The notes under the pieces were generated by a model that worked only from the letters and a program-made list of their open reading frames with translations, was not told the origin of the DNA and searched no databases. A DNA stretch of 41,090 bases. Origin: a virus. Lineage: Duplodnaviria; Heunggongvirae; Uroviricota; Caudoviricetes. Below, piece after piece: positions 9,831-32,752 of the stretch. The translations under genes were made by a program, and so were the position numbers. Positions within the stretch are counted from its first letter, which is position 1. Every line of letters begins with the position of its first letter. The DNA lies in IMG/VR virus record IMGVR_UViG_2563366960_000010. One strand, given 5' to 3'.

Positions 9831-9842
9831 GTGACATGTCAC
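9831..9842. repeat. GTGACATGTCAC palindrome copy 1 (14-mer CGTGACATGTCACA on minus strand)
   Basis: Perfect 12-bp palindrome between convergent genes; same core at 27027 and 29292. Confidence 0.6.
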
Positions 9843-23795: not shown

Positions 23796-24088
23796 TCCTG
23801 TTCACTGGCCTCTTTGGCCATCTTCAAATACTGTTCAGGGCAATGCGCCATAACGCGCTGAAACAGTTCCAGCGCCAGATTGCGTTGCCCCTCATTAAAT
23901 GCCATTGCCATAGCATCCATCGGAGAGATAGCGGAAAACACCCGGCCTTTCTCCAGCACCGACCAGACAACGCGACGCCCCTGTTCACTGCTCATGACAA
24001 AGCGAATGTCATCAATTTCACGCTGTGCCATGTCACGTTGCTTACGGGCGTTTTCTTCTTTCAGTTGATCGTCTTCGAAATCTGTCAT
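23792..24088 (-). CDS. Small acidic head-assembly-associated protein
   Basis: 98-aa ORF overlapping portal stop and scaffold start. Confidence 0.4.
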   Translation of the reverse strand: MTDFEDDQLKEENARKQRDMAQREIDDIRFVMSSEQGRRVVWSVLEKGRVFSAISPMDAMAMAFNEGQRNLALELFQRVMAHCPEQYLKMAKEASEQE

Positions 24089-26412: not shown

Positions 26413-26489
26413 GTGGCATTAGCTCAGTTGGACAGAGCAACCGCCTTCTAAGCGGTTGGTCGCAGGTTCGAATCCTGCATGCCACGCCA
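26413..26489 (+). tRNA. tRNA-Arg (anticodon UCU), phage-encoded, argU-like
   Basis: 77-nt cloverleaf folded by hand: acceptor GTGGCAT/ATGCCAC, T-arm GCAGG-TTCGAAT-CCTGC, anticodon loop CTTCTAA, discriminator G, encoded CCA; core resembles E. coli argU but stems differ. Confidence 0.85.
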
Positions 26490-26677: not shown

Positions 26678-26689
26678 AAGGTGAAAATC

Positions 26690-27022
26690 ATGAAAGAGAA
26701 GACTGCAGCTGAGCGCTATGCCGCAGCTATCAATGCCGCGATGGCGATTGTAAACCTGCGTGAAGAGATTAAAGATCTCCTTGCAATTATCCATAACAAC
26801 CTGACATGTACAGAGTTGCTTGGCGGTCAGTACAACGGTGAGGCGGTGAAGGAGGCATTTAAAAATGCCGAGGTAGGAATAATTCCAGCAAACTATGTCA
26901 AGGCTGAATGTGTGCTCCTAAAGGCACGAGTGAGTCTGCATGAAGATCCTGGTAATCTCGGTCGAACTGCAATGCGTTACGTGATAGACGAGTCGAATGC
27001 CAAACACAATCTACCGAAATAA
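26690..27022 (+). CDS. Hypothetical 110-aa helical protein in tRNA island (accessory gene)
   Basis: ORF with SD AAGGTGA, opposite in orientation to the flanking late operon; no family recognised. Confidence 0.5.
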   Translation: MKEKTAAERYAAAINAAMAIVNLREEIKDLLAIIHNNLTCTELLGGQYNGEAVKEAFKNAEVGIIPANYVKAECVLLKARVSLHEDPGNLGRTAMRYVIDESNAKHNLPK

Positions 27023-27026
27023 CACC

Positions 27027-27038
27027 GTGACATGTCAC
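27027..27038. repeat. GTGACATGTCAC palindrome copy 2 (14-mer CGTGACATGTCACA)
   Basis: Perfect copy 5 nt after the stop of the 110-aa gene, between convergent genes. Confidence 0.6.
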
Positions 27039-27112: not shown

Positions 27113-28588
27113 TTAAGCATAGGGATCGTAATCTGTGATGGCCTTGCCTTGCTGGTTCTGCTGACCGGGAATTCGCAGACGCTTCGACACAGGGAACGCA
27201 AACGTCAGCAGTAGCGCATCGCCTTTACCAGGAGAACGCCCAAGTCGCTCTTTGATATCTTCCTTCGGTTCGATAACGATTTTACCGTCCACTCGAACTT
27301 TGTACTCTGCTGCCGACAGGTCGTCCGCTGTTTCCTGGTCATCCAGCATGCCGCCCAGCCTCAGCCATGTCTTGCATGAATTGAACATCTCCCCACGCTT
27401 GTTGAGCATCTGCGGGTCAGTAGACGCGCCACCGAACGGAACAAGTTGCCATGTACGACCCCATCCGTCACCGATTGACTTCAGACCGGTTCCGTAACCG
27501 AAGTCGATGAACACCGCGTCAGCCTGATACTGGTCTTCAAAGTCAGCGATACGCTTCGCCATAATCAGATCGTCGGTAGTCTTGTTGCCAGTCCACAGCA
27601 CCTTACTGTGTAGCCCCTGCCGCAGGTATATCACCGCGTCATCAACGCCTGAATATGCCGGGTCAACACCGATTATCACCGGAGCATGCGCCACCTGCGC
27701 AGCGGTTACCACCCGTTTCATTGCCTCATCAGTAAGACCGGTAGGGATAAACTGCAATTCAGATGCATCAGGGAATATGCCGCGCACACGGATTTTAACG
27801 AAGTCGCTGTCTTCCCCGTAGTCATCAACCCATTTCTGCAACTGCTGTTTGTTAGTGCCTTCCACCGTTCGGCTGTCAATCTGCGCAGTTTTCCAGCGGT
27901 GTTTATATTTGCGGAAACATTCGCGGAAACGTCCGGTATTACGCGTCGGGTTTCCGAACGCCACCCAGATAATCTCAGTGTCTTCGTCCGTTAGTGCACC
28001 CTCGGCAACTTCCCACACCAGATCCGCAATGTTCGACGCTTCATCGAATACCACGATGATGCGTTTGCGCTCGTTGTGTAGTCCGGCGAATGCCTCAGTG
28101 TTGTGCTCAGACCAGGGGATTGCGTCAGCTCGCCACCGCTTGTCGTGTCCAGGATCATTGCTGTACATCGCGGTAGCGGTACAGGTAAACCAGTCTTTCG
28201 TGATAGCAAGGTTCGACCACTTGATAATTTCCGGCCAGGTCTTCGTTCGTAGCTGGTTGTCGGTGTTGGCGGTCACCACGACCTTACAATCCTCGCAAGT
28301 GGACATGCCCCAGTTGATCAGCATTGAGATGAATGCGGATTTACCAATACCGTGACCCGAAGCACGTGCCAGCATAAGCGGCTGATAGCGCGTCTCTGGA
28401 TTCTGCAGGTGATCACGTATCTCTCGGAACGCATCAGCCTGCCACTGACGTGGGCCGGTAGCATGTGCCAGTTCAGTCCCCTCTTCCCCCCACGGGAACG
28501 CATAGAGGGCATAGCCAAGCGGATCGTGAGTGAACCCTGCAATATCCTCGATCAACTGCTCTTCAGGAGATAACGCTGTATCTGTCAC
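27113..28588 (-). CDS. terL: Terminase large subunit
   Basis: 491 aa, Walker A-like GHGIGKS, acidic nuclease-domain motifs; 4-nt overlap with upstream small terminase gene. Confidence 0.85.
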   Translation of the reverse strand: MTDTALSPEEQLIEDIAGFTHDPLGYALYAFPWGEEGTELAHATGPRQWQADAFREIRDHLQNPETRYQPLMLARASGHGIGKSAFISMLINWGMSTCEDCKVVVTANTDNQLRTKTWPEIIKWSNLAITKDWFTCTATAMYSNDPGHDKRWRADAIPWSEHNTEAFAGLHNERKRIIVVFDEASNIADLVWEVAEGALTDEDTEIIWVAFGNPTRNTGRFRECFRKYKHRWKTAQIDSRTVEGTNKQQLQKWVDDYGEDSDFVKIRVRGIFPDASELQFIPTGLTDEAMKRVVTAAQVAHAPVIIGVDPAYSGVDDAVIYLRQGLHSKVLWTGNKTTDDLIMAKRIADFEDQYQADAVFIDFGYGTGLKSIGDGWGRTWQLVPFGGASTDPQMLNKRGEMFNSCKTWLRLGGMLDDQETADDLSAAEYKVRVDGKIVIEPKEDIKERLGRSPGKGDALLLTFAFPVSKRLRIPGQQNQQGKAITDYDPYA

Positions 28589-29181
28589 TGATTACCATCC
28601 TGACGTTCTTTGAGTCGCTTCCTGGCTGCTGCTATGCGATCAGCAATTGTCACATTCACATTAACATCCAGACGTTCTTTGAACGCGTTGACATCAACAT
28701 GCTTACCAATCAGCTCAAGGTTCTTCACCTTGTCAGGCCATTTAATTTTTTTGAGGATTGTCTCTATCGAATCCTCGTTCATGTTCATGATGGTCGATGA
28801 CAGATCAAAGCCACTAAGCGTAGTGCGCCAGATTTTCGGCCACTCACGGATTGGTTTAAGGCTCCCATCGTCGTTGAGGATGTCGATCACGTCCATCTGG
28901 TCGATCTCCACCAGGCGCATGAGAACGTAATCAGCACTGACGCGCATTCGTTTGTTGCGCTCCTCCATCAACTCGGCAATCCGTTTTTGAATGCGTTCAT
29001 CGCGCATCATGACACTGGCTTTAACTGCCGCTGTATTTGGGGAGAATCCTGCGTTAATCGCTGCCTGAGTCTGGTTTTCAGGCGTTTTGATGTATGACTG
29101 GCAATAAGCCTCCTGCATTGCTGTTAGTGGCTTAAATTGCGTTGATTTGCGTTTATAGGTTTTAGGTTCAGCAGGCATCAT
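28585..29181 (-). CDS. terS: Terminase small subunit
   Basis: Upstream of and overlapping terL; N-terminal HTH-like segment; start taken at ATG 29181, the track ORF extends to a TTG at 29259. Confidence 0.55.
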   Translation of the reverse strand: MMPAEPKTYKRKSTQFKPLTAMQEAYCQSYIKTPENQTQAAINAGFSPNTAAVKASVMMRDERIQKRIAELMEERNKRMRVSADYVLMRLVEIDQMDVIDILNDDGSLKPIREWPKIWRTTLSGFDLSSTIMNMNEDSIETILKKIKWPDKVKNLELIGKHVDVNAFKERLDVNVNVTIADRIAAARKRLKERQDGNQ

Positions 29182-29291
29182 AACCACCGTGGTAATAGTT
29201 ACCGTTGTGGTAATAGTACCATGCAAAATAAAGCCGCCATAGTTGGCGGCAGTATTCAAAACCCATCAAATTCATCATGCATAATCTACTC

Positions 29292-29303
29292 GTGACATGT
29301 CAC
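29292..29303. repeat. GTGACATGTCAC palindrome copy 3 (14-mer CGTGACATGTCACA)
   Basis: Perfect copy overlapping the stop codon of the 115-aa gene, upstream of terS. Confidence 0.6.
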
Positions 29304-29647
29304 ACTATTAATTTCGTTTCATGCCAGCCTTTAGTCACCCAGCATTGCGAGTCACCATTACACGGGCATGAATTAACTGGAACTCTCTCGCCGCACTTAC
29401 CGCAACATTTTCTGCTGATCGATTTTATACGCCCGCGCACGCGTGCATCATCCTGGCGGATCAGTAACGCGATGTACTCGGCCATTTCATAGGGATCGCG
29501 ACCAGGGCGCCGGGCGGCGCAGTTCCGCGCCAGCATTTCCTGCTCCTGCTTATCCAGCACCAGTTCAATTTTGCGCTCACCGGCGGCGGACTGCCGAGCG
29601 CGCTGCGCGGCTTTGCGTTCTGCGGGGGATTTAGCCACGAATCGCAC
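29300..29647 (-). CDS. Hypothetical protein with basic helical N-terminus and Cys-rich C-terminus (possible DNA-binding regulator)
   Basis: 115 aa, GTG start; C-terminal cluster CCGKCGERVPVNSCPCNGDSQC; last gene before terS. Confidence 0.45.
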   Translation of the reverse strand: MRFVAKSPAERKAAQRARQSAAGERKIELVLDKQEQEMLARNCAARRPGRDPYEMAEYIALLIRQDDARVRGRIKSISRKCCGKCGERVPVNSCPCNGDSQCWVTKGWHETKLIV

Positions 29648-29753
29648 TCCACGCCAGATTGATTAATGACTCCCAGGTAATATAAACCCGGATACCAGCA
29701 GCCAGGCCGAAACCAATCACCATGGCATAAAGCAGAGCGTTGCACTTGTTCAT
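29631..29753 (-). CDS. Small hydrophobic membrane peptide (40 aa)
   Basis: ATG overlaps the DUF551 stop (TGATG), excellent SD AGGAGGTGA; single TM-like segment; below ORF-track cutoff. Confidence 0.5.
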   Translation of the reverse strand: MNKCNALLYAMVIGFGLAAGIRVYITWESLINLAWSAIRG

Positions 29754-30532
29754 CACTTCACCTCCTGCTGCGGTGCTGCTGGCATTTCACGCCAGTGCGT
29801 AACTGAGTGCGGATCCGGATATTCGGTGCCATCATCCCAGCGATTGCCATTCCACATTGCAGACCACATCTCACCGTCTTCATACATGACCATTACCGGA
29901 ATTAACTTATCCGGCATTCTCTCACTACAGCTTATCCAACCATCCGGAGTTACCGGATAGTTGCCAGCCTGAACAGTAGGCATATCAGGACCTTTGCGAA
30001 TCGCCCTGGCAAGATCGATTGGGTCGTCGTACAACCAGTCACCTGTTTGCGGATGATTGGCTTCTGCCAATTGTGCAGCCCACTCCAGGCCGTCTTTGTG
30101 TCCTTGCAGATAGTCCAGCGGTAACTCATCACTATTACTTACAGGTTCGGCCTGAAGCATGGCGGCGCGGCAGGCGTTCCAGCCTCTCACCTCTGCAATA
30201 GCGGCAACAGCATCGACCGCGTACATTTTAAGAGGGTTAGGCATTGGTTTTTCTTCAGGTACTACTGGCACTGGAGGGGCGGCATAAACAGGAATAACGT
30301 CCGATTGCTCTTTATTGCTTTCATCCGTCAAAGCCCAGAATAATTTTCCGGCCGGATGTTTGAAAATATAAGCAACTGGTTCTGCGCTATCAGCTTCGCG
30401 CCGCTTCTGTAGCTCTGCTGCCATTGCTCTCACGACTTCAACTGGTACCCTTGCAGCAAACTCTATGTTGGTGATCAGCTCATTAAGATATTGCTCGCTG
30501 GGATACTGTTTCTTATCGGTTAAAGGGGTCAT
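29753..30532 (-). CDS. DUF551-domain protein
   Basis: 259 aa; C-terminal W..I...ERMP......VTHWREMP pattern typical of DUF551 in lambdoid nin regions. Confidence 0.6.
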   Translation of the reverse strand: MTPLTDKKQYPSEQYLNELITNIEFAARVPVEVVRAMAAELQKRREADSAEPVAYIFKHPAGKLFWALTDESNKEQSDVIPVYAAPPVPVVPEEKPMPNPLKMYAVDAVAAIAEVRGWNACRAAMLQAEPVSNSDELPLDYLQGHKDGLEWAAQLAEANHPQTGDWLYDDPIDLARAIRKGPDMPTVQAGNYPVTPDGWISCSERMPDKLIPVMVMYEDGEMWSAMWNGNRWDDGTEYPDPHSVTHWREMPAAPQQEVK

Positions 30533-30533
30533 A

Positions 30534-31025
30534 TCACTCTCCTTTGATGCGAATGCCAGTGGTACTCATTCTCCTGATTTCCCAGAGCACACGAGGAACA
30601 CCACCGTTTCCGACCGGATCGCGTTTACTCCGCAGGGCGACGCTTGATTCCGCCCAGCTTTTTCTTGGAGGAAGCTCTTTCACACGAACAAAACCAGCTG
30701 CGCGAAGAGATGCTCCTGATTCATCTGCCCGGGTGTACGTAATACAACGTTGATAACCCATAGCTTTTGCTGCCCGCCAGACAGCACCATAAAGCGCGCT
30801 GTTAGCGTTGCGTTCTCCTGTGGTACATGTGCGATTTACTTCAAGCGTTAATCCATCGTCCAAATGTCGTGCAACAGGTCTACCGGCTGTCGCCACACCT
30901 ATCAATTCTCCGGCATCATTTCTCAGACCAATGCTGAATTTATGCCCCACCGGGGGTTTATTGTGTCGGTGATGTCTTGATATAAACGCCTTCGCAACAC
31001 GAAGAGTAACCGGTGAAATTTGCAC
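30534..31025 (-). CDS. Hypothetical protein (nin-region)
   Basis: About 163 aa from GTG 31025 with SD AAGGAGAG (track ORF extends to 31064); contains HRH..PPVGH; family not recognised. Confidence 0.45.
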   Translation of the reverse strand: MQISPVTLRVAKAFISRHHRHNKPPVGHKFSIGLRNDAGELIGVATAGRPVARHLDDGLTLEVNRTCTTGERNANSALYGAVWRAAKAMGYQRCITYTRADESGASLRAAGFVRVKELPPRKSWAESSVALRSKRDPVGNGGVPRVLWEIRRMSTTGIRIKGE

Positions 31026-31027
31026 TC

Positions 31028-31744
31028 TCACTCTCCTTTGATGCCAATGTTTACAGCCTGGCAAGCCTCTTTGAGCACCCAGTCAACAGCGTCTTTCCAT
31101 GCTCCGGTTTCGACTGGCGGGTTCTCACGTTTTACCTGCTCATAAAAACGCACCGCTTTAATCAGTCCTTCCGGTACTACTGGCGATGGCTGTTTAGCTT
31201 CTAAATCAGCAATTCTGTCAACCACGGCATCTACAGCATCTGAAAAGCCGAACAAGTTGCTCCACTCCGGCCTATCCCCGGTTGCTGCAAAATACATATC
31301 AGCTAAAGCAGACTCAGCATGATCACGCTCGCTGATGAGTTGCTCTTCGCTTTTCTCCAGTTCAGCAATACGCTTACTTCCATCCGAGATAACACCTTCG
31401 TAATATTCACGCTGCTCGTTGAGTTTTGATTTTGTCTCCTCAAGTTCAGCAACCAGTTTTCGAAGCCCTTCAATCTCACCATTGCGAGCAATGAGGTCGC
31501 GGCACATGCTTTCGTTCTCATCCAGCAGTGCAAGCACGGTAGCCGGATTAGCCTTGGCAACAAAATCCCGGACTGGCTTACAATCAATCTCCGCAATGGG
31601 TTGATACGATGTGTAGCCATGCTGTCTTGTATAACTACCGTGACGAATAACGAAAAAATCACCATTTATTTTTTTAGCCTGCCACTTATCTTCACCGGCT
31701 TTCTCTGCCGCTTCACGCAGTGCATGATAGTTAATTTTGTTCAC
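31028..31744 (-). CDS. Ead/Ea22-like protein
   Basis: 238 aa; N-terminus MNKINYHALREAAEKAGEDKW resembles Ead/Ea22-like prophage proteins; central coiled coil. Confidence 0.55.
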   Translation of the reverse strand: MNKINYHALREAAEKAGEDKWQAKKINGDFFVIRHGSYTRQHGYTSYQPIAEIDCKPVRDFVAKANPATVLALLDENESMCRDLIARNGEIEGLRKLVAELEETKSKLNEQREYYEGVISDGSKRIAELEKSEEQLISERDHAESALADMYFAATGDRPEWSNLFGFSDAVDAVVDRIADLEAKQPSPVVPEGLIKAVRFYEQVKRENPPVETGAWKDAVDWVLKEACQAVNIGIKGE

Positions 31745-32407: not shown

Positions 32408-32752
32408 TCAGAACTCTTCGATGTTCCAGCCACCACCTGCTTTCTTTGGTTTAACCGTTACCCCGATGATTCGGAACGGATACTGATCTGCGGCGACTTT
32501 GGTTTTCACCCTGGCGTCGTCGGTCCAGAAACCTTTCACTTCGTGCAGTTCCATCTCTCCGGTGGCGAGCATCACAGCGAAATCGGGCGTATAGAACGTG
32601 TTGTCAGCTAACCGCAGCTTGATACCCTCGAATCGATACCAGGCGATTTCCCCTGCACGTTTACGCTGCTCAAGGTGCTGGCAATACGCAGATTCTGTTT
32701 TGTTCATCTGGCCTGTTTTGAGTCGACCAAGAGCCTGTATCTGTTTTCTCAT
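32408..32752 (-). CDS. DUF1064-like phage protein
   Basis: 114 aa with pattern recalled for DUF1064 proteins; operator palindrome sits immediately upstream. Confidence 0.5.
   Translation of the reverse strand: MRKQIQALGRLKTGQMNKTESAYCQHLEQRKRAGEIAWYRFEGIKLRLADNTFYTPDFAVMLATGEMELHEVKGFWTDDARVKTKVAADQYPFRIIGVTVKPKKAGGGWNIEEF

What the first reader, a model, noticed from the sequence alone, without database searches (positions are those of the whole stretch)
29292..29753. Cys-rich small protein and a coupled 40-aa membrane peptide immediately upstream of the late operon
No Q-like antiterminator was recognised. The last gene before terS encodes a 115-aa protein with a basic helical N-terminus and a C-terminal cluster CCGKCGERVPVNSCPCNGDSQC, and its stop overlaps one GTGACATGTCAC copy, making it a candidate late-gene regulator. 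Just upstream, an unannotated 40-aa hydrophobic peptide is coupled to the DUF551 gene through a TGATG overlap with a perfect SD.
Basis: inference. Interest (0 to 1): 0.45.

Follow-up and report, generated by a model that had tools for sequence, protein, structure and literature searches.

The report
Phage DNA-binding protein with matS-like sites
The last gene before the packaging genes of this phiV10/epsilon15-like prophage encodes a small zinc-containing DNA-binding protein that always travels with a 12-base palindrome resembling the bacterial matS site, and probably controls whether transcription stops or continues at operon ends; its function has never been tested.

Summary
On the minus strand a DUF551 gene, a 40-aa membrane-peptide ORF and a Cys-rich ORF overlap one another. 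The TGA stop of the Cys-rich ORF lies inside GTGACATGTCAC. One correction: the protein is almost certainly 112 aa (GTG at 29638), not 115.

The window is a Uetakevirus-type prophage. The protein is epsilon15 gp49 / phiV10 gp55 / N15 gp46 (phrog_536). It has no Pfam family, and I found no functional study.

GTGAC-N2-GTCAC occurs three times in the window (0.01 expected), at the same three operon ends as in phiV10 and epsilon15. In homologues down to 35% identity, on four other phage backbones, a site with the same half-sites and spacing but a free central dinucleotide sits at or near the gene's stop. This is matS minus one central base.

Sites usually lie just upstream of intrinsic terminators. 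On three backbones the gene directly precedes a terminator-guarded late operon. On two others it coexists with Q or Ogr.

The protein very probably binds the palindrome. It probably modulates read-through at operon boundaries, direction unresolved. The 40-aa ORF is a real small-protein family.

The parts
29300..29638 (-). Gene for the 112-aa ribbon-helix-helix + zinc-knuckle protein (epsilon15 gp49 / phiV10 gp55 / N15 gp46 family, phrog_536). The mechanical ORF extends to GTG 29647 (115 aa).
29292..29303 (.). Palindrome copy 1, GTGACATGTCAC, overlapping the TGA stop of the regulator gene. Inferred binding site.
   Evidence: Same position in 77 of 80 close loci despite at least four different downstream contexts. 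Kept with other central dinucleotides in distant homologues.
27027..27038 (.). Palindrome copy 2, between the end of terL (-) and the end of a convergent 113-aa moron gene (+). It lies next to a hairpin that is a good terminator for the moron strand.
   Evidence: Same position in phiV10 (2262) and epsilon15 (2142). Many variants of this junction.
9831..9842 (.). Palindrome copy 3, just after the last small gene of the structural operon and abutting an intrinsic terminator (hairpin 9830-9813, T-run to about 9806, minus strand).
   Evidence: Same position in phiV10 (19493) and epsilon15 (19517). Terminator detected 0 nt from the site.
29225..29250 (-). Intrinsic terminator (GCCGCCAACTATGGCGGC + TTTATTTT) between palindrome copy 1 and terS.
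   Evidence: RNA fold. Conserved in relatives.
29180..29214 (.). Two tandem prophage-repressor operators (ATTACC-N5-GGTAAT type) between the terminator and the terS start codon.
   Evidence: 13 copies in the window against 1 expected. The same element is annotated as a repressor site upstream of terS in epsilon15.
28585..29181 (-). terS, first late gene. Probable start ATG 29181 (197 aa), followed by terL 27113..28588.
   Evidence: PF03592 E 1.4e-29. phrog_51. A 594-bp terS is annotated in TL-2011b and EC.W1-9.
29631..29753 (-). 40-aa single-pass membrane peptide gene. Its start overlaps the DUF551 stop (TGATG), and its last 8 nt overlap the regulator start.
   Evidence: phrog_5525 E 7.6e-30. 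Present in 34 related loci. 40-aa homologue of 50% identity in P1-like phage SJ46.
29753..30532 (-). DUF551-domain gene (259 aa) upstream of the peptide gene.
   Evidence: PF04448 E 5.8e-18.

Best explanation
The gene encodes a 112-aa dimeric DNA-binding protein. A basic N-terminal helix and a ribbon-helix-helix read the 12-bp palindrome GTGAC-N2-GTCAC in the way MatP reads matS. A long helix then carries a four-Cys zinc knuckle that distantly resembles TraR/DksA.

One site always lies at the 3' end of the protein's own gene, which is the end of the early operon. In this phage two more sites lie at the ends of the terminase/moron units and of the structural operon. In each case the site sits between a stop codon and an intrinsic terminator.

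From these sites the protein most likely modulates RNA polymerase as it crosses operon boundaries. My preferred version is that it lets transcription from the early operon pass the terminator in front of terS, a Q-like switch loaded from a DNA site. The mirror-image version, a roadblock that reinforces termination and insulates the operons, is almost as likely.

Shown: the fold, the site statistics, the co-occurrence of protein and site, and the association with terminators. Inferred: the binding itself, any contact with RNA polymerase, and the sign of the effect.
For: Fold:
- The AlphaFold2 model has pLDDT 92.9.
- MatP reads matS with helix alpha4 plus strand beta1 (PMC8669397). The phage protein shares exactly these elements.

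Site:
- 3 copies in the window against 0.01 expected.
- In 1.57 Mb of related loci there are 221 copies with a 2-nt spacer and none with 1-, 3- or 4-nt spacers.
- The three positions are the same in phiV10 and epsilon15.

Co-occurrence:
- The site is at the stop codon in 77 of 80 close loci, with at least four different downstream contexts.
- Homologues of 35-45% identity keep GTGAC-NN-GTCAC at or within 5 nt after the stop. Central dinucleotides seen are AG, GG, GC, GT, CA, TG and AC. This holds even when the stop is TAG and lies outside the palindrome.
- The backbones involved are N15/phiKO2, a P2-like Yersinia phage, a Vibrio phage and another lambdoid type.

Terminators:
- 137 of 228 sites have a terminator-like hairpin within 110 nt, against 93 of 825 random positions.

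Position:
- The gene directly precedes a late operon that starts behind one or two strong terminators in L086/L087 and Vibrio K303, and in this window.
- No Q-like family was found among the proteins scanned.

Zinc half:
- The top three hits of the family profile against PDB sequences are TraR, TraR and YbiI, at E about 0.06.
- hhalign against a TraR alignment gives E 8e-5, probability 61%.
Against: - No experiment exists, and no paper on the protein or the motif was found.
- Sequence-level similarity to RHH families is only marginal. Similarity to MatP is not significant.
- The family coexists with Q in N15/phiKO2 and with Ogr in a P2-like phage.
- Copy 2 precedes a terminator only for the moron strand, where read-through would make antisense terL RNA.
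- Repressor operators directly upstream of terS and the other late blocks suggest that late genes are derepressed directly.
- Some sites lie immediately upstream of a ribosome-binding site, or inside a gene (N15 repA).
- About 12 of the 78 loci in the second set of relatives lack the site at the stop; some of these are cut off at the locus end.
Confidence: 0.55

Rival explanations
1. Boundary roadblock or insulator. The protein binds the palindromes and stops RNA polymerase, or helps the adjacent terminator. This would keep early-operon, moron and antirepressor transcripts from running into or against the late operons. Late genes would be driven from their own repressor-controlled promoters.
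For: - All three sites lie at 3' ends of transcription units, two of them between convergent units.
- The stop codon - palindrome - terminator arrangement recurs with many different morons.
- Repressor operators sit in front of terS, the gp3-like operon and the tailspike region.
- In L086 and K303 the site lies 70-100 nt upstream of the late promoter-like site, that is, at the end of the preceding operon.
- In N15 one site separates the repA operon from the antirepressor operon.
- The model is compatible with coexistence with Q or Ogr.
Against: - A steric roadblock needs no conserved zinc module with TraR-like features.
- In L086, L087 and K303 something must still overcome the strong terminators in front of the holin gene, and no other candidate was recognised.
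- The gene lies in an operon expected to be silent in lysogens, where insulation of morons would matter most.
Confidence: 0.3
2. Mini-MatP acting on DNA organisation rather than on transcription. The protein marks phage DNA at matS-like sites. It would bridge or loop those sites, or interfere with host MukBEF/MatP or SMC-type defences.
For: - The best structural match is MatP-matS.
- The half-sites are identical to matS. GTGACATGTCAC equals the E. coli consensus matS GTGACATTGTCAC minus one base.
- The hosts of the family (Enterobacterales, Vibrio, Aeromonas) are, from my own knowledge, the groups that have MatP and MukBEF.
- There are about three sites per genome in Uetakeviruses, N15 and K303.
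Against: - There is no significant sequence similarity to MatP, and no hit to the MatP Pfam domains.
- The protein lacks most of the MatP four-helix bundle and the coiled coil.
- The P2-like phage has only one site.
- The strong association with stop codons and terminators is not expected for a purely architectural protein.
Confidence: 0.08
3. Protein and palindrome are functionally unrelated. The palindrome would be a conserved recombination junction or part of terminator modules, or a site for another factor. The protein would be a TraR-like RNA-polymerase-binding factor or an ordinary repressor with another operator.
For: - Sequence to one side of each palindrome is highly mosaic, as at known module boundaries.
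- There is a weak TraR/YbiI similarity.
Against: - Half-sites and the 2-nt spacing are invariant while flanks, central bases and even the stop codon change, over five phage backbones, always next to this gene.
- A recombination junction would not keep dyad symmetry with a free centre. That pattern is the signature of a dimeric DNA-binding protein.
Confidence: 0.07

Closest known systems
MatP-matS (Ter macrodomain organiser of E. coli and relatives)
   Same: - The DNA half-sites GTGAC/GTCAC are identical.
- MatP uses alpha4 plus beta1 for recognition (PMC8669397).
- Both have few sites per genome.
   Different: - The site is 12 bp (2-nt centre), not 13 bp. No 13-bp copy occurs in 1.57 Mb of related phage DNA.
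- No significant sequence similarity and no hit to the MatP Pfam domains.
- Three of the four bundle helices and the C-terminal coiled coil are missing, and there is a zinc knuckle instead.
- Sites sit at stop codons and terminators.
Lambda-type Q antiterminators (Q-lambda, Q82, Q21)
   Same: - The gene is the last one of the early operon, directly upstream of a late operon that begins behind a strong terminator (three backbones).
- The DNA site lies next to the gene.
- Q-lambda also carries a zinc finger (my own knowledge).
   Different: - No sequence or fold match to any Q family.
- The site is not placed consistently within a promoter.
- Extra sites lie at operon ends.
- The family coexists with a Q-like protein in N15/phiKO2.
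TraR/DksA C4 zinc-finger RNA-polymerase secondary-channel factors (F TraR, YbiI)
   Same: - Both have a long helix, then C-x2-C-G-x2-P ... G ... C, then a short C-terminal helix.
- TraR and YbiI are the only near-threshold hits of the family profile against all PDB sequences.
- hhalign gives E 8e-5.
   Different: - No PF01258 hit.
- The second CxxC is replaced, and a mid-loop Cys is the probable fourth ligand.
- The helix that enters the polymerase channel in TraR is here the second helix of an RHH dimer.
- hhalign probability is only 61%.
Arc/Mnt/CopG-type RHH phage and plasmid repressors and RHH antitoxins
   Same: - Dimeric recognition of a short symmetric operator.
   Different: - Those operators overlap promoters upstream of the regulated gene.
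- Here the site is at the 3' end of the protein's own gene and next to terminators.
- This protein has an extra N-terminal recognition helix and a zinc module.
P2 Ogr / P4 Delta zinc-finger late activators
   Same: Both are small phage zinc proteins linked with late gene control and a dyad DNA element.
   Different: - No hit to the Ogr_Delta family.
- The Cys spacing and DNA element differ (Ogr uses TGT-N12-ACA).
- An Ogr gene and Ogr-type promoters coexist with the homologue in the Yersinia phage.

Membership tests
Ribbon-helix-helix (Arc/MetJ/CopG) superfamily | Beta-strand, helix, helix fold that dimerises into a two-stranded ribbon | tested here: met
   [not shown]
Ribbon-helix-helix (Arc/MetJ/CopG) superfamily | Significant match to an RHH sequence family (Pfam RHH_1, RHH_5 and others) | tested here: inconclusive
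   Only 1-2 of 54 members match each RHH-type family (RHH_5, RepB-RCR_reg, RHH_1), at E 0.013-0.07. The window protein gives none.
MatP | MatP N-terminal four-helix bundle and MatP_C domains (PF06303, PF17414) | tested here: not met
   No Pfam hit. hhalign of the family against E. coli MatP gives probability 0.3%. Only the alpha4-like helix plus the RHH are shared structurally.
MatP | Recognises the 13-bp matS GTGACRNYGTCAC | tested here: not met
   The associated sites are 12 bp, GTGAC-N2-GTCAC. There are 221 copies with the N2 spacer and none with N3, and no 13-bp site in the window. Binding itself was not tested.
DksA/TraR C4-type zinc finger (PF01258) | C-x2-C-x17-C-x2-C zinc finger after a long helix, with a match to PF01258 | tested here: inconclusive
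   No Pfam hit. Profile against PDB gives TraR and YbiI at E about 0.06. hhalign gives E 8e-5, probability 61%. The second CxxC is not conserved.
DksA/TraR C4-type zinc finger (PF01258) | Binds the RNA polymerase secondary channel | not testable with these tools
   This needs pull-down, cryo-EM or in vitro transcription.
Lambdoid Q antiterminators | Sequence membership in one of the Q families | tested here: not met
   No Pfam, PHROG or NCBIfam hit to any antiterminator family. No structural hit.
Lambdoid Q antiterminators | Gene directly upstream of a late promoter followed by a terminator that must be read through | tested here: inconclusive
   Met in L086 and K303. L087 has the terminator but no promoter-like site. 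Arguably met in the window. Not met in N15/phiKO2 or the P2-like phage.
Lambdoid Q antiterminators | Makes RNA polymerase terminator-resistant | not testable with these tools
   This needs reporter or in vitro transcription assays.
Ogr/Delta late activators | Ogr_Delta zinc finger, with TGT-N12-ACA late promoters | tested here: not met
   No family hit. The Yersinia phage carries a separate Ogr gene and TGT-N12-ACA promoters.
phrog_536 / epsilon15 gp49 / N15 gp46 family | Full-length match to the family profile | tested here: met
   phrog_536 E 6e-54 over 110 of 115 positions. 786 clusters at 90% identity. About 150 clusters at 50% identity.
phrog_5525 (40-aa peptide) | Full-length match to the family profile | tested here: met
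   E 7.6e-30 over 40 of 40 positions. SJ46 gp090 is 40 aa and 50% identical.

The most novel reading that the evidence does not exclude
A previously unrecognised class of DNA-site-loaded antiterminator. A MatP-like ribbon-helix-helix reads a 12-bp matS-like palindrome placed just upstream of intrinsic terminators. A TraR-like zinc module then engages RNA polymerase as it passes. Early-operon transcription would thereby extend into the late genes. This would be the functional equivalent of lambda Q in Uetakeviruses and in at least two other phage groups that lack a recognisable Q.
Probability: 0.15. Interest if true: 0.8.

Novelty: new variant of a known kind. Interest (0 to 1): 0.58.

Why it matters
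How late genes are switched on in epsilon15/phiV10-type phages is not known. These phages include reporter phages used to detect E. coli O157 and common prophages of Salmonella, Klebsiella and E. coli.

This work pairs an uncharacterised but widespread protein family with a precise 12-bp DNA site and a small set of positions. The question becomes directly testable with a gel shift, a ChIP and a terminator read-through reporter.

The near-identity of the site to the host matS, and the MatP-like reading head, raise two further questions. One is whether the phage protein and MatP share ancestry. The other is whether there is cross-talk with the host's Ter/MukBEF system.

If the zinc half really is TraR-like, this would be the first case I know of in which that polymerase-binding module is tethered to a DNA site.

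Tried and rejected
- Pfam, NCBIfam and sequence searches of PDB with the single protein gave nothing.
- The single-sequence AlphaFold model was poor (pLDDT 62). It was replaced by the alignment-based model.
- Foldseek against PDB and BFVD was uninformative. The afdb50 library was unavailable.
- Profile-based locus search failed because no conserved stretch was found.
- The searches seeded with TraR and MatP returned only close relatives (at least 66% and at least 97% identity). The TraR profile is therefore shallow, and no MatP profile test was possible.
- hhalign of the family against single-sequence MatP was not significant.
- The Dupaigne 2012 MatP-matS paper is not held.

Readings rejected:
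- The palindrome as a sigma-70 promoter. Copy 1 gives a 9-of-12 match, but copies 2 and 3 and several homologous sites have no -10 element or no room for one.
- The palindrome as an RNA hairpin element. The half-sites are invariant rather than covarying, the centre is not self-complementary in several lineages, and the stem is weak.
- A link to the Mom-like gene through a Com-type translational activator. The Mom gene is not a constant neighbour.
- A packaging (pac/cos) role. The N15 sites are far from the terminase genes and cos.
- Literature searches for the motif, epsilon15 gp49 and Uetakevirus late transcription found nothing relevant.

Full report
**What is in the sequence**

All genes of the finding lie on the minus strand.
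- A DUF551 gene spans 29753..30532 (PF04448, E 5.8e-18) and ends in TGA.
- The last base of that TGA is the first base of an ATG (29753) that opens a 40-codon ORF. The SD GGAGGTGA lies 4 nt upstream of the ATG.
- The 40-aa ORF ends at TAA 29633-29631.
- It overlaps a Cys-rich ORF whose TGA stop (29302-29300) lies inside GTGACATGTCAC (29292-29303).
- An intrinsic terminator follows (hairpin 29250-29233 plus a T-run).
- Two repressor-type operators come next (29214-29180), then terS (PF03592) and terL.

The mechanical ORF is 115 aa from GTG 29647. However, 100 of the 120 closest homologue clusters listed are 112 aa. In related loci the start is a conserved (A/G)TGGCTAA that overlaps whichever gene lies upstream by 8 nt. 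The true start here is GTG 29638, with GGAG 8 nt upstream.

**What the element is**

The window is a Uetakevirus-type prophage, related to phiV10, epsilon15 and TL-2011b.

The protein is phiV10 gp55, epsilon15 gp49 and, by the epsilon15 record's note, N15 gp46.
- It belongs to phrog_536, labelled 'transcriptional regulator' (E 6e-54). RefSeq uses the same label.
- It has no Pfam or NCBIfam family.
- I found no paper that studies it.
- The family is moderate in size: 786 clusters at 90% identity and about 150 at 50%.
- It occurs in phages of Escherichia, Salmonella, Klebsiella, Enterobacter, Yersinia, Pectobacterium, Vibrio and Aeromonas.

**Structure**

An alignment of 54 full-length members shows:
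- invariant C79 and C82;
- near-invariant P87, G95 and C99, plus a Cys about nine residues after C82;
- conserved R8 and R13 in a basic N-terminal helix.

AlphaFold2 with this alignment gives a confident model (pLDDT 92.9). Its elements are helix 5-18, an extended segment 20-28, helix 30-42, a long helix 52-74, a knuckle 77-99 and helix 100-108.

At the sequence level the RHH assignment is only marginal. Similarity to MatP is not significant.

A profile of the family against all PDB sequences gives three near-threshold hits: TraR, TraR and YbiI. All are DksA/TraR-type zinc fingers, aligned over residues 49-110 (E about 0.06). hhalign against a shallow TraR alignment gives E 8e-5, probability 61%. 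I treat the TraR likeness as a lead, not a result.

**The palindrome belongs to the protein**

- GTGACNNGTCAC occurs three times in the window, against 0.01 expected. Copies are at 29292, 27027 and 9831.
- phiV10 and epsilon15 carry it at the same three places although the flanks differ.
- In 77 of 80 close IMG/VR loci it overlaps the stop codon. What follows varies: terminator plus terS, an extra gene, a LexA-box/umuD-like promoter, or epsilon15-type sequence.
- Homologues of only 35-45% identity keep the half-sites and the 2-nt spacing but vary the centre (AG, GG, GC, GT, CA, TG, AC). The site lies at or within 5 nt after the stop, even when the stop is TAG and outside the palindrome.
- These homologues sit on quite different backbones:
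  - N15/phiKO2;
  - a P2-like Yersinia phage;
  - a lambdoid type (L086/L087);
  - Vibrio phage K303, where the sites are not at the stop but about 230 nt downstream, directly upstream of terS, and upstream of one other gene.
- In 1.57 Mb of fetched loci there are 221 copies with a 2-nt spacer and none with 1, 3 or 4 nt.

Invariant dyad half-sites with a free centre are what a dimeric DNA-binding protein leaves behind. They are not what an RNA hairpin or a mere recombination junction would leave. Binding is inferred, not shown.

**Likeness to matS**

The host matS consensus is GTGACRNYGTCAC (PMC6907758). The E. coli consensus is GTGACATTGTCAC (PMC8669397). The phage site is that sequence minus one central base.

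The protein fails the MatP membership tests on domains, sequence and site length. It therefore works like MatP at the reading head but is not a MatP.

**Where the sites lie**

In this window each copy sits between a stop codon and an intrinsic terminator, for the unit that ends there:
- the regulator gene (copy 1; terminator 39 nt on);
- the convergent moron after terL (copy 2);
- the structural operon (copy 3; terminator abutting).

Over all loci, 137 of 228 sites have a terminator-like hairpin within 110 nt, against 93 of 825 random positions. The lineages are not independent.

In L086 the order is gene, site, promoter-like site, two strong terminators, then holin, endolysin, terS and terL. 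L087 has the same gene order, with two sites and a strong terminator directly before the holin gene, but no promoter-like match. K303 is arranged like L086. In these phages something must read through the terminators. I recognised no Q-like protein there or in the window (the scans were not exhaustive).

Against a general late-activator role:
- N15/phiKO2 have a Q-like gene and an annotated late promoter 2 kb away.
- The Yersinia phage has Ogr and Ogr-type promoters.
- In Uetakeviruses, repressor operators lie directly upstream of terS and the other late blocks.

**Mechanism**

My best-supported statement is that the protein is a site-specific DNA-binding regulator acting on transcription at operon boundaries. 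My estimates are:
- about 0.8 that it binds the palindrome;
- about 0.55 that its role is control of read-through or termination there;
- about 0.08 for a MatP-like architectural or anti-SMC role;
- about 0.07 for no link between protein and site.

**The 40-aa ORF**

It matches phrog_5525 over its whole length (E 7.6e-30). It is annotated in phage EC.W1-9. It is found in 34 of the related loci.

A 40-aa homologue of 50% identity exists in the P1-like phage SJ46, with the motif VGFG..AG...YI.WE..IN.AWS on quite different DNA. It is therefore a real small single-pass membrane protein.

Among close relatives the five variable sites are all non-synonymous. That is too few to judge.

The same slot holds other genes elsewhere: an ASCH-like gene, a DUF2591-like gene, epsilon15 gp48 and more. 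All end in the same 8-nt overlap. The peptide is thus an exchangeable accessory gene, linked to the regulator by gene overlap only.

**Verdict**

The protein family is known by name only. The new elements here are its pairing with a matS-like 12-bp site, its MatP-like reading head and its placement at terminators. Together they make a clear experimental programme possible.

Noticed in passing
window 6617, 7737, 7830, 8897, 26075, 29180, 29198, 32755, 32817, 35104, 35816, 35878: ATTACC-N5-GGTAAT repressor-type operators occur 13 times at up to 2 mismatches, against 1 expected. The 12 copies with at most 1 mismatch are listed here. They lie in the immunity region and also directly upstream of terS, the gp3-like structural operon and the tailspike/Bro region. 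Late blocks may therefore be repressed directly by the prophage repressor.
   Followed up: partly
window 26413-26489 (+) and 26681-27022 (+): A tRNA-Arg(TCT) gene and a 113-aa moron gene lie on the strand opposite to the late genes, between terL and the structural operon. Their unit ends at palindrome copy 2.
   Followed up: partly
window 30534-31064 (-): A Mom-like DNA-modification gene (phrog_1384 E 9.6e-42; Pfam Mom below its cut-off) lies immediately upstream of the DUF551 gene, three genes upstream of the regulator.
   Followed up: no
window 24025-24036; phiV10 (L004) 5306: A one-mismatch copy of the palindrome (GTGCCATGTCAC) lies inside the gp5/p08-like gene, at the equivalent position in phiV10. 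It may be a coding coincidence or a weak fourth site.
   Followed up: no
window 29176-29310 (-): The RNA around the terminator upstream of terS folds better than shuffles (z -3.8). The sequences flanking the terminator hairpin pair with each other. This could be a processing site, since epsilon15 annotates RNase III sites elsewhere.
   Followed up: no
window 29631-29638 and related loci: The 8-nt junction (A/G)TGGCTAA is shared by at least six unrelated upstream genes that all end in Gly-stop. It looks like a module boundary used in recombination.
   Followed up: partly
L089 5500-6740: A non-coding, G+C-rich stretch of about 1.2 kb lies between the regulator homologue and the next gene and ends in a terminator. 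It has no Rfam match at gathering threshold.
   Followed up: partly
L167 (Yersinia phage vB_YenM_31.17) about 32430-32650 (+): An Ogr-like zinc-finger ORF (MMHCPRCKFAAHARSSRYLSDETKERYHQC...) is not annotated. The record instead annotates a 92-aa ORF on the opposite strand.
   Followed up: partly
L086 702-725 and 919-940: Two near-identical strong terminators lie in tandem upstream of the lysis genes. The second falls inside the longest ORF call for the holin, whose real start is probably further downstream.
   Followed up: no
L169 (N15) 28550, 33237, 39269: N15 has three GTGAC-N2-GTCAC sites. One is at the gene 46 stop, one is inside repA, and one lies between the repA operon and the antirepressor (gene 32-30) promoter/terminator region.
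   Followed up: partly
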